Shown: positions 3,743 through 3,970, counted from the first letter of the stretch. The stretch: DNA of 11,368 nucleotides from a virus (IMGVR_UViG_2671180821_000007), one strand, 5' to 3'. The notes: generated by a model from the sequence alone, not told the origin. Made by a program: numbers and translations.

Positions 3743-3970
3743 TTCACCTGTTCACCTTTTGCAATTTTCCCTTTTTATTCATGATGTTAATGGGTTAACA
3801 GTTTCACAAAAACTATTCACCAACTGTTCACCACTGTTCACCCTTAAAGCTCAATAAAGAATCAAAAAGGTGAACAGTGAATAGTTTGGTGAACAGTTCA
3901 TAAATAACTGTTCACCCTATAATATACTGATATAAAAGACATTTATTGCAGGGTGAACAGTGGTGAACAG
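3743..3970. repeat. iteron cluster, putative origin of replication (P4 type I iteron-like TGTTCACC)
   Basis: CTGTTCACC at 3748, 3824, 3834, 3908 (variant CTATTCACC at 3813, partial TTCACC at 3743). Inverted GGTGAACAG at 3869, 3888, 3952, 3962. AT-rich context. Lies immediately 3' of the primase C-terminal segment. Confidence 0.7.

What the first reader, a model, noticed from the sequence alone, without database searches (positions are those of the whole stretch)
3743..3970. Cluster of nine TGTTCACC-type iterons in both orientations, candidate origin
Nine copies of a 9-bp motif (CTGTTCACC / GGTGAACAG) within about 230 bp of AT-rich DNA, immediately 3' of the primase C-terminal segment. The octamer TGTTCACC is, as I recall, the P4 type I iteron bound by the alpha protein at ori and crr. 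This places the replication module in the P4 family even though the island encodes its own capsid. The region also lies just upstream of the orf81-ssb operon, so iteron occupancy could couple replication initiation to ssb expression.
Basis: partly seen in the sequence, partly recalled or inferred. Interest (0 to 1): 0.5.

Follow-up and report, generated by a model that had tools for sequence, protein, structure and literature searches.

The report
P4-type replication origin of a satellite island
The repeat cluster is the replication origin of a decayed phage-satellite island (a PICI); it uses the same 8-bp protein-binding repeat and repeat layout as satellite phage P4, so it is a real but essentially known kind of element.

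Summary
TGTTCACC occurs 8 times exactly in 3749-3969, against 0.44 expected in the whole window, and 4 degenerate copies sit at matching positions. The 12 sites form two inverted six-site modules around an A-tract spacer. Each module matches the P4 ori core in site number, orientation and spacing.

The array starts 30 bp after the stop of a P4 alpha-like replication gene. That gene's C-terminal fragment is 51% identical to the solved P4 origin-binding domain. The same array follows alpha-like genes in 73 of 77 loci from many Enterobacterales. Where the repeat sequence differs, the layout stays and the binding domain differs too.

EcCICFT073, whose equivalent pri-rep-ori segment was shown by others to drive plasmid replication, has the same layout with TGTCTACC. 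EcCIRM13514, a catalogued PICI, has the same TGTTCACC array and an 86% identical Rep. So this is a PICI origin with P4-type specificity: a member of a known kind.

- The "primase" lacks P4's zinc-ribbon and Toprim primase domain.
- The gene is broken here by IS600 and a frameshift, so the origin is orphaned.
- Nothing supports a link to ssb expression.

The parts
3741..3969 (.). Whole origin array: 12 TGTTCACC-type iterons (8 exact, 2 with one mismatch, 2 with two) arranged as two inverted six-site modules.
   Evidence: The sites are conserved against diverged spacers in KppS-Ant, which is 72% identical overall.
3869..3969 (-). Rep-proximal module. Read from the rep stop: a pair (3962, 3952), an AT-rich spacer, one inverted site (3909), then a triple (3888, 3876 degenerate, 3869).
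   Evidence: Start-to-start spacings read left to right on the + strand (3869 to 3962) are 7, 12, 21, 43 and 10. In the P4 ori core they are 10, 11, 22, 43 and 10. The two align in register (A2).
3741..3842 (+). orf81-proximal module, the mirror image of the first: a pair (3741 degenerate, 3749), an AT-rich spacer, one inverted site (3793, one mismatch), then a triple (3814 with one mismatch, 3825, 3835).
   Evidence: Site 3793 is an exact GGTGAACAG in four E. coli relatives.
3843..3868 (.). Central spacer between the two triples. The three consecutive 10-mers at 3840-3869 each end in AAAG (acccttaaag, ctcaataaag, aatcaaaaag), giving phased A-tracts. This is a candidate bending or melting site.
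   Evidence: Read directly. It resembles the P4 type-2 repeats ccacttaaag, tcatttaaag, ccacttaaag at 9176-9205. It is only loosely conserved in relatives.
3757..3792 (.). AT-rich spacer inside the left module; candidate unwinding element.
   Evidence: It can be aligned by eye with the P4 crr spacer (TGTTCACCTTTCTGTTTTCTCCTTTTATTTCA).
3917..3951 (.). AT-rich spacer inside the right module; candidate unwinding element.
   Evidence: It has the same length as the spacer in the P4 ori core.
4000..4296 (-). C-terminal fragment of the alpha-like Rep: the winged-helix origin-binding domain, cut off from the helicase by IS600. A 1-bp insertion near the 3' end replaces the last residues.
   Evidence: Pfam Pox_D5 at E = 3e-11. 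PDB 1ka8, the P4 origin-binding domain, at E = 1.2e-22. 51% identity to alpha residues 690-771. Frameshift shown.
4285..5545 (-). IS600 (IS3 family) inserted in rep, 99 codons before the stop.
   Evidence: Boundaries come from blastn against the intact relative L005. Transposase domains. A RefSeq annotation names it 'IS3-like element IS600 family'.
5537..7069 (-). N-terminal 510 residues of Rep: an N-domain of about 130 aa of uncertain function, then D5_N and the SF3 helicase. It ends in IS-derived codons.
   Evidence: Pfam. 51% identity to alpha residues 320-682 and nothing matching alpha 1-300. This exact truncated product is on record in 558 blocks of the public collection.
3032..3696 (-). 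orf81 (3696..3451; phrog_1231, function unknown) and ssb (3454..3032; ends in the acidic tail ...DNIPF). These are the genes next downstream of the origin.
   Evidence: The same gene order occurs in EcCICFT073 and in four E. coli relatives. EcCIRM13514 has ssb annotated downstream; an orf81-like reading frame is visible there but is not annotated.

Best explanation
The array is the replication origin of a phage-inducible chromosomal island (PICI) of the EcCICFT073 / EcCIRM13514 kind. Its initiator is a relative of P4 alpha.

Inferred mechanism: the island's Rep is an SF3 helicase with a C-terminal winged-helix domain. That domain binds the TGTTCACC sites. Sites within a cluster are mostly 10-11 bp apart (7-12 bp in the window), so mostly on one face of the helix. 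The two six-site modules face each other. This should let two helicase rings assemble head to head, open the AT-rich or A-tract spacers, and start replication in both directions.

Rep lacks alpha's zinc-ribbon and Toprim primase. Priming therefore probably depends on the host primase, perhaps helped by the SSB encoded just downstream. That step is pure inference.

In this genome Rep is split by IS600 and also frameshifted. The origin is intact but orphaned. It could fire only if a related Rep, or possibly a P4-type alpha, were supplied in trans.

Shown here: the sites, their layout, the homology, and the conservation and co-variation across loci. Taken from the literature: alpha's C-terminal winged-helix DNA-binding domain and its solved origin-binding-domain structure (PMC2777425, citing Yeo et al. 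2002); that alpha binds the type I iterons is my own recollection of the P4 literature (Ziegelin et al. 1993); and the replication activity of the EcCICFT073 pri-rep-ori segment (PMC6092414). Inferred: binding in this element, double-ring loading, and the priming route.
For: 1. Chance is excluded: 8 exact copies against 0.44 expected in the whole window.

2. The octamer is the annotated P4 type-1 repeat.

3. Each half of the array matches the P4 ori core in site number, orientation and spacing.

4. The adjacent gene encodes an alpha homologue. Its C-terminal domain hits the solved P4 origin-binding domain at E = 1.2e-22 with 51% identity.

5. Phylogenetic footprint: in KppS-Ant the region is 72% identical overall, yet the octamers and their spacing are kept while the spacers diverge.

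6. Distribution among 77 evaluable alpha-like loci from GTDB species representatives:
- 65 have at least 4 TGTTCACC-like sites (median 8) in the 330 bp after the stop.
- Exact copies run at 10.1 per kb there, against 0.022 per kb in the flanks.
- 8 carry a different repeat (TGTCTACC, CTGTCCGC, TCTCCACC, TGTATACC, GTGTTCAT) in a recognisably similar layout, and their binding domains differ, mainly in the predicted wing.

7. EcCICFT073 has the same gene order and array layout with TGTCTACC. Its Rep is 49% identical to the window-type Rep. Its pri-rep-ori segment supports plasmid replication, and deleting rep or ori impairs it (PMC6092414).

8. EcCIRM13514 has an 86% identical Rep and the same TGTTCACC array.

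9. The array travels with rep, not with the downstream genes. In KppS-Ant the next annotated gene is the capsid gene, with no orf81-ssb.
Against: - No experiment was done on this sequence or on this specificity class. Binding and initiation are inferred.
- Rep is disrupted here, so the origin is probably silent in this host.
- In P4, iteron clusters have two roles: ori is the start site and crr is a cis-acting helper. Sequence alone cannot say where synthesis starts in this array.
- With at most one mismatch allowed, the full six-block orientation pattern is visible in only 14 of 80 arrays. Most show four blocks, because the single inverted sites are degenerate.
- Four alpha-like loci from Pantoea and Ewingella have no array within 3 kb.
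Confidence: 0.85

Rival explanations
1. The array is mainly an operator: bound protein controls transcription of the downstream orf81-ssb genes rather than starting replication.
For: The array lies directly upstream of orf81-ssb. A weak promoter-like pair on the - strand (TTGCAA, then 19-20 nt, then TAAAAT) overlaps the outermost iteron pair (read). No terminator separates rep from orf81, so bound Rep could act as a roadblock to read-through transcription.
Against: The promoter scan found no site on the coding strand. The -35-like hexamer is not conserved in close relatives. The array follows rep in many genera whatever lies downstream: in KppS-Ant the next annotated gene is the capsid gene, with no orf81 or ssb. 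The layout equals the P4 ori core. Deleting the equivalent EcCICFT073 region impairs replication (PMC6092414).
Confidence: 0.05
2. The array is a crr-like element: needed in cis to load or stimulate the initiator, while synthesis actually starts elsewhere in the island.
For: It occupies the position of P4 crr, immediately 3' of the alpha gene. One intra-module spacer can be aligned by eye with the crr spacer.
Against: Only one other TGTTCACC copy exists in the 11.4-kb window, inside rep, so there is no second cluster to act as ori. The modules match the P4 ori layout, not the crr layout: crr is a pair, a spacer, an inverted triple, then a single site. Long P4-type alpha genes in Xenorhabdus and Zobellella also have only this compact array in the 3 kb flanks examined.
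Confidence: 0.08
3. In this particular genome the array is a functionless relic of a dead island.
For: The island carries at least four lesions:
- IS600 in rep.
- A 1-bp insertion at the rep 3' end.
- IS1 between int and alpA.
- A split protease-capsid fusion gene, compared with the single ORF in L094.
One iteron has mutated relative to its relatives. The IS-truncated Rep is fixed across a large clonal set, with 558 collection blocks.
Against: Eight iterons remain exact and the geometry is intact. The sites could still be bound by a related Rep or by P4-type alpha made elsewhere in the cell, because the octamer is shared. This rival concerns present activity, not identity, and is compatible with the best explanation.
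Confidence: 0.5

Closest known systems
Satellite phage P4 ori (X51522, type-1 repeats at 9310-9413)
   Same: It uses the identical octamer TGTTCACC. It has the same six-site module: a triple, one inverted site 21-22 bp away, a 43-bp step across an AT-rich spacer, then a pair 10 bp apart. The initiators are homologous, with 51% identical helicase and origin-binding domains.
   Different: P4 has one module, located over 2 kb beyond the far (5') end of alpha, and also needs crr. Here two modules lie head to head directly 3' of the gene, and there is no second cluster. P4 alpha carries an active zinc-ribbon and Toprim primase; this Rep does not.
P4 crr (X51522, 4291-4590)
   Same: It occupies the same position, just 3' of the alpha gene, and uses the same octamer. 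It has a pair of sites followed by a similar T-rich spacer.
   Different: crr is two direct 120-bp repeats. Each is a pair, a spacer, an inverted triple and a single site. A terminator precedes crr. The window has inverted modules and no terminator.
EcCICFT073 pri-rep-ori, the experimentally tested Gram-negative PICI replicon (Fillol-Salom et al. 2018, PMC6092414)
   Same: The island organisation is the same: int, alpA, DUF4222, Rep, a 288-bp gap, a small orf, ssb, then capsid genes. The origin has the same double-module layout. Rep is 49% identical over its full length.
   Different: The iteron is TGTCTACC rather than TGTTCACC, and the binding domain is divergent.
EcCIRM13514, a catalogued E. 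coli PICI and one of four Pri-Rep alleles compared in PMC6092414
   Same: Rep is 86% identical, and the same TGTTCACC array follows it directly. This is the same origin allele as in the window.
   Different: Rep is intact there. The accessory and morphogenesis genes differ.
SaPI origins in Staphylococcus (Ubeda et al. 2007, as cited in PMC6092414)
   Same: [quoted passage not shown]
   Different: The iteron sequences and the host lineage differ.
Origins of other SF3-helicase initiators (SV40 large T antigen, papillomavirus E1); from general knowledge
   Same: Inverted arrays of short binding sites on which two helicase rings are thought to assemble head to head. This is a 'works like' comparison only.
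   Different: These are eukaryotic viruses with a different origin-binding fold and different sites. No membership is claimed.

Membership tests
P4 alpha-type origin | Repeated octamer TGTTCACC (type I iteron) in both orientations. | tested here: met
   There are 8 exact and 4 degenerate copies. The P4 record annotates the same octamer as its type-1 repeat.
P4 alpha-type origin | A cognate initiator with an alpha-type SF3 helicase and a C-terminal winged-helix origin-binding domain. | tested here: met
   The protein is 51% identical to alpha residues 320-775 and hits PDB 1ka8 at E = 1.2e-22. The gene is interrupted by IS600 in this window.
P4 alpha-type origin | A two-part origin: ori and crr several kb apart, both needed in cis. 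| tested here: not met
   There is a single compact array. The only other copy in the window is one site inside rep. The 73 of 77 alpha-like loci that have an array show the same compact form.
P4 alpha-type origin | An initiator with an N-terminal zinc-ribbon and Toprim primase. | tested here: not met
   Pfam finds no Zn_Ribbon_Prim or Toprim hit, whereas P4, L054 and L076 all score. Nothing aligns with alpha residues 1-300.
P4 alpha-type origin | Type II 10-bp repeats near the type I cluster. | tested here: inconclusive
   Three phased 10-mers ending in AAAG at 3840-3869 resemble the P4 repeats at 9176-9205. They are poorly conserved in relatives.
P4 alpha-type origin | The initiator binds the iterons and replication starts there. 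| not testable with these tools
   This needs gel-shift or footprinting assays and a replication assay.
Gram-negative PICI origin (EcCICFT073 type) | Located immediately 3' of the pri-rep gene. | tested here: met
   The array begins 30 bp after the rep stop. EcCICFT073 and EcCIRM13514 show the same arrangement.
Gram-negative PICI origin (EcCICFT073 type) | Two sets of iterons flanking AT-rich DNA. | tested here: met
   There are two inverted six-site modules around an A-tract spacer, each with its own AT-rich spacer. The published definition is quoted.
Gram-negative PICI origin (EcCICFT073 type) | Island context: int, alpA, one direction of transcription, Rep, then morphogenesis genes, in a 10-15 kb element. 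| tested here: met
   The gene order matches EcCICFT073. An S. sonnei PICI with a 412-aa integrase, the same length as the one here, is listed in the PMC6092414 supplement.
Gram-negative PICI origin (EcCICFT073 type) | Rep homologous to a validated PICI Pri-Rep. | tested here: met
   The intact window-type Rep (L005, whose rep is 97.5% identical in DNA to the window's N-terminal part) is 49% identical to EcCICFT073 Pri-Rep and 86% to EcCIRM13514 Pri-Rep.
Gram-negative PICI origin (EcCICFT073 type) | Drives autonomous replication together with its Rep. | not testable with these tools
   This was shown only for EcCICFT073 (PMC6092414). Rep is broken in this window.

The most novel reading that the evidence does not exclude
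The compact twelve-site, two-module origin directly 3' of the gene may be the usual state for the whole alpha family. P4's separated ori (one module) and crr (rearranged modules) would then be derived. Because this PICI class and P4 share the octamer TGTTCACC and have 51% identical binding domains, the two satellite families may cross-activate each other's origins, or titrate each other's initiators, in cells that carry both. In addition, the PICI Rep may be a primase-dead derivative of alpha: it keeps a Toprim-like fold without the catalytic residues and would have to borrow host priming.
Probability: 0.3. Interest if true: 0.5.

Novelty: new member of a known kind. Interest (0 to 1): 0.3.

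Why it matters
This result assigns a clear function to an AT-rich repeat cluster. About 9% of complete E. coli genomes (506 of 5426) carry at least 80% of the window segment 3000-4320, which contains this array, and the array type recurs in many other Enterobacterales.

It also shows that one PICI replication module and the P4 replicon are the same system. They share the octamer, the site geometry, and a homologous helicase and binding domain. The paper that defined these islands described only a distant relationship.

The natural series of repeat variants, with matching changes in the binding domain, is ready material for studying how initiator specificity evolves. It also bears on which satellites can coexist in one cell.

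In this genome the finding has little physiological weight, because the initiator gene is broken.

Tried and rejected
- DnaA boxes: TTATNCACA with one mismatch gives 9 matches in the window against 11 expected, and none lies in the array.
- Promoter and terminator scan of 3400-4350: nothing on the coding strand and no terminator.
- Rfam and tRNA scans of the window: nothing.
- orf81 and the DUF4222 protein against P4 ORF106, which I recall as the cnr gene: no similarity.
- N-terminal domain of Rep:
  - No Pfam or NCBIfam hit; PHROGs matches only phrog_2850, of unknown function, and phrog_864, labelled 'DNA primase' and also hit by the C-terminal fragment.
  - Profile-profile comparison with the P4-type Toprim region gave no match, with probability 0.1.
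  - Foldseek against the PDB gave nothing significant.
- Literature:
  - No paper in the library holds both TGTTCACC and 'phage P4'.
  - The classic P4 papers and the Lindqvist review are not held.
  - The iteron sequences in Fig. 2a of PMC6092414 are in an image and could not be read.
- The E. coli ED1a record is not in the collection, so that Pri-Rep allele was not checked.
- Pantoea and Ewingella alpha-like loci: no repeat cluster within 3 kb. This was left unexplained.
- BLAST of the array region against the phage collection did not recover P4 itself. The similarity lies in short sites and spacing, not in long alignable sequence.

Full report
**1. The observation**

TGTTCACC occurs 9 times in the window. 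Eight copies lie within 3749-3969: four on the + strand (3749, 3825, 3835, 3909) and four on the - strand (3869, 3888, 3952, 3962). Shuffles that preserve dinucleotide content give 0.44 copies for the whole window, and none of 200 reaches 9. The ninth copy, at 6523 inside the rep gene, fits chance.

Four degenerate copies also exist: 3793 (-) and 3814 (+) with one mismatch, and 3741 (+) and 3876 (-) with two. The 3793 copy is exact in four E. coli relatives. GC falls to 0.33 across 3701-4000. The description is therefore correct, except that the array has 12 sites (8 exact plus 4 degenerate) rather than nine.

**2. Anatomy of the array**

The 12 sites form two six-site modules that mirror each other.
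- Read from the rep stop, the first module (3969 to 3869) is a pair 10 bp apart, then a 43-bp step across an AT-rich spacer, then one inverted site, then a 21-bp step, then a triple.
- The second module (3842 to 3741) repeats this in the opposite orientation.
- The 26 bp between the modules (3843-3868) belong to three consecutive 10-mers at 3840-3869, each ending in AAAG.

Both modules align in register with the P4 ori core. Start-to-start spacings in P4 are 10, 11, 22, 43 and 10. In the window's right module they are 7, 12, 21, 43 and 10. P4 crr has a different order: a pair, a spacer, an inverted triple, then a single site.

**3. Surroundings**

All island genes run on the - strand. In order, the features are:
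- an integrase (11368..10130);
- an IS1 (9770..9073);
- alpA (9030..8734);
- a DUF4222 gene (7365..7066);
- rep;
- the array;
- orf81 (3696..3451);
- ssb (3454..3032);
- a ClpP-like protease (2372..1227);
- a capsid protein (1263..505).

Rep is in two pieces. The 510-residue N-terminal part (7069..5537) carries D5_N and an SF3 helicase. The 98-residue C-terminal part (4296..4000) carries Pox_D5. An IS3-family element, annotated elsewhere as IS600, sits between them at about 4285-5545, 99 codons before the stop. A 1-bp insertion also shifts the frame of the last codons. The protease and capsid ORFs are a single fusion gene in a relative. The island is therefore decaying.

The exact truncated Rep is on record in 558 blocks of the public collection. 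Close fragments are named Shigella sonnei. No complete E. coli genome holds 80% or more of the window.

**4. Relation to P4**

GenBank X51522 annotates 'ori type 1 repeats' that read TGTTCACC. There are 11 exact copies, five in crr just 3' of alpha and six in ori.

Residues 150-512 of the Rep N-terminal part are 51% identical to alpha 320-682. The C-terminal fragment is 51% identical to alpha 690-771. It hits PDB 1ka8, the P4 origin-binding domain, at E = 1.2e-22. [quoted passage not shown] 2002 structure are described in PMC2777425. That alpha binds these repeats is my recollection of the P4 literature (Ziegelin et al. 1993). I did not test it here.

Nothing in Rep corresponds to alpha 1-300. 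Pfam finds no zinc ribbon and no Toprim, although P4 and two long relatives score for both. The RefSeq name 'DNA primase family protein' most likely derives from TIGR01613 'primase_Cterm', which matches residues 239-544, the region homologous to alpha's post-primase part where Pfam finds D5_N and an SF3-helicase domain.

**5. Comparative evidence**

Within E. coli:
- 506 of 5426 complete genomes hold at least 80% of window 3000-4320.
- Four intact relatives show an intact Rep of about 605 aa, a 287-bp gap, then orf81, ssb and capsid genes.
- In the 16.5-kb induced element vB_KppS-Ant the region is 72% identical overall. The octamers and their spacing are kept while the spacers differ.

A scan of one genome per species with an alignment of alpha-like proteins returned 80 loci. 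They come from Kluyvera, Raoultella, Klebsiella, Pectobacterium, Serratia, Xenorhabdus, Photorhabdus, Erwinia, Zobellella and other genera. Of the 77 evaluable loci:
- 65 have at least four TGTTCACC-like sites (median 8) in the 330 bp after the stop. Exact copies run at 10.1 per kb there against 0.022 per kb in the flanks.
- 8 carry another repeat in a recognisably similar layout: TGTCTACC, CTGTCCGC, TCTCCACC, TGTATACC or GTGTTCAT.
- 4, from Pantoea and Ewingella, have no array.

The binding domains differ along with the repeat, mostly in the stretch between EYG and SN(V/L)xL that I take to be the wing.
- TGTTCACC loci have KRKTKHG(I/L)RSN, and P4 has KRHTKQGIQTN.
- TGTCTACC loci have an insertion, as in KQCTRGPDKGRTISN.
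- L080 and L082 differ at five positions over the last 100 residues compared, two of them in that stretch, yet they use TGTATACC and GTGTTCAT.

Constant geometry with co-varying sequence is what a protein-binding array and its cognate binder should show.

Both long P4-type alpha genes (803 and 807 aa, with zinc ribbon and Toprim) and short PICI-type Reps have the compact array directly 3' of the gene. P4's split arrangement therefore looks like the exception.

**6. Relation to known PICIs**

Fillol-Salom et al. 2018 (PMC6092414) define Gram-negative PICI origins as lying immediately 3' of the replication gene, with two sets of iterons flanking AT-rich DNA. They showed that the EcCICFT073 rep-ori segment maintains a plasmid, and that deleting rep or ori impairs this.

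I retrieved EcCICFT073. It has the same gene order. Its Pri-Rep is 49% identical to the window-type Rep and 41% identical to alpha. Its 288-bp gap holds the same double-module array built from TGTCTACC.

EcCIRM13514 is one of the four Pri-Rep alleles compared in that paper. Its Rep is 86% identical to the window-type Rep, and the same TGTTCACC array follows it. The paper's supplement also lists a 14.3-kb S. sonnei PICI whose integrase has 412 residues, the length found here.

The element is thus a member of a described class. The paper calls the Pri-Rep to alpha relationship distant and argues that the two satellite families evolved independently. The shared octamer and module layout show that this replication module is common to both.

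**7. Mechanism**

The best-supported reading is that the array is the island's origin. Rep's C-terminal domain binds the sites. The two inverted modules position two helicase assemblies facing each other. The AT-rich or A-tract spacers then melt.
- Shown here: the sites, the layout, the homology and the co-variation.
- Taken from the literature: alpha's C-terminal DNA-binding domain (its binding to the iterons is from my memory) and EcCICFT073 replication.
- Inferred: binding here, double loading and bidirectional start.

Priming is open, because Rep has no recognisable primase. The downstream SSB ends in an acidic ...DNIPF tail, the kind of tail that recruits host replication proteins in E. 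coli SSB (general knowledge). Use of host DnaG is therefore plausible but untested.

In this genome the initiator is broken, so the origin can act only in trans.

**8. The ssb idea**

The scan found no consensus promoter on the coding strand and no terminator between rep and orf81. A weak TTGCAA / TAAAAT pair overlaps the outer iteron pair, but its -35 part is not conserved. The simplest reading is that orf81-ssb is transcribed together with rep. A roadblock effect of bound Rep is possible, but nothing supports it.

**9. Side result on the N-terminal domain**

The first strand reads IIFAGxDAW where, by my own comparison of the first-strand motifs, P4 has WIAEGYATA. The MAFFT alignment does not pair them, and hhalign found no match. 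On that reading the conserved Toprim glutamate is replaced by alanine, and no DxD motif is present. The same domain is fused to RepA-like helicases in other alleles. I read it as a possible inactivated Toprim remnant, with low confidence.

**10. Verdict**

The origin interpretation and the P4 link are supported. The element belongs to a known kind (a PICI origin, EcCIRM13514-type allele). The added value is the demonstration that its layout equals a doubled P4 ori core, and that repeat specificity co-varies with the binding domain across genera. Interest is modest.

Noticed in passing
window 4285-5545: An IS600 (IS3 family) element is inserted in rep exactly between the helicase and the origin-binding domain. 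The resulting 510-aa truncated product is on record in 558 blocks of the public collection, which suggests a fixed lesion in a clonal lineage, probably Shigella sonnei.
   Followed up: yes
window about 4010-4020: A 1-bp insertion relative to L003 shifts the frame of the last rep codons. The protein ends ...SCAIGHK instead of ...SCASVTNDDGKN.
   Followed up: yes
window 505-2372: The ClpP-like protease and the capsid protein are two overlapping ORFs here (2372..1227 and 1263..505). In a related E. coli O111:H8 island (L094, 792-2681) they form one 1890-bp fusion gene, so the gene appears frameshifted in the window.
   Followed up: partly
window 9073-9770: An IS1 element (insA and insB) lies between the integrase and alpA. 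This is another sign of decay.
   Followed up: partly
[not shown]
   Followed up: partly
window 2917-4284 versus 5546-7726: The rep region is a mosaic. The binding domain, ori, orf81 and ssb are 96.9% identical to L003 but 92.4% to L005. The helicase part is 97.5% identical to L005 but 88% to L003. The recombination junction lies near the boundary of the binding domain, as if that domain and the origin travel together.
   Followed up: partly
window 3840-3869: Three consecutive 10-mers end in AAAG (acccttaaag, ctcaataaag, aatcaaaaag). They resemble the three P4 type-2 repeats at 9176-9205 but are only weakly conserved in relatives.
   Followed up: partly
L080 4764-5100 and L082 4764-5100: Two loci have nearly identical binding domains (five differences over the last 100 residues compared, two in the predicted wing: N/T and M/V) yet use different iterons, TGTATACC and GTGTTCAT. 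The L082 array also contains a few TGTATACC-like sites, so it may be an evolutionary intermediate.
   Followed up: partly
window 3451-3696: orf81 (phrog_1231, no known function) sits between the origin and ssb in this island, in EcCICFT073 and in four E. coli relatives; in EcCIRM13514 an orf81-like frame is visible but not annotated. It has no similarity to P4 ORF106.
   Followed up: partly
L083-L086 (Pantoea and Ewingella): These alpha-like genes have a conserved binding domain (wing RRTNNGIQTN) but no detectable repeat cluster within 3 kb on either side.
   Followed up: partly
window 6523-6562: One exact copy (6523, - strand) and one copy with one mismatch (6554, + strand) of the 9-mer lie 31 bp apart inside the rep coding region. 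Related loci have 0 or 1 copies in the gene, so this is probably chance.
   Followed up: partly
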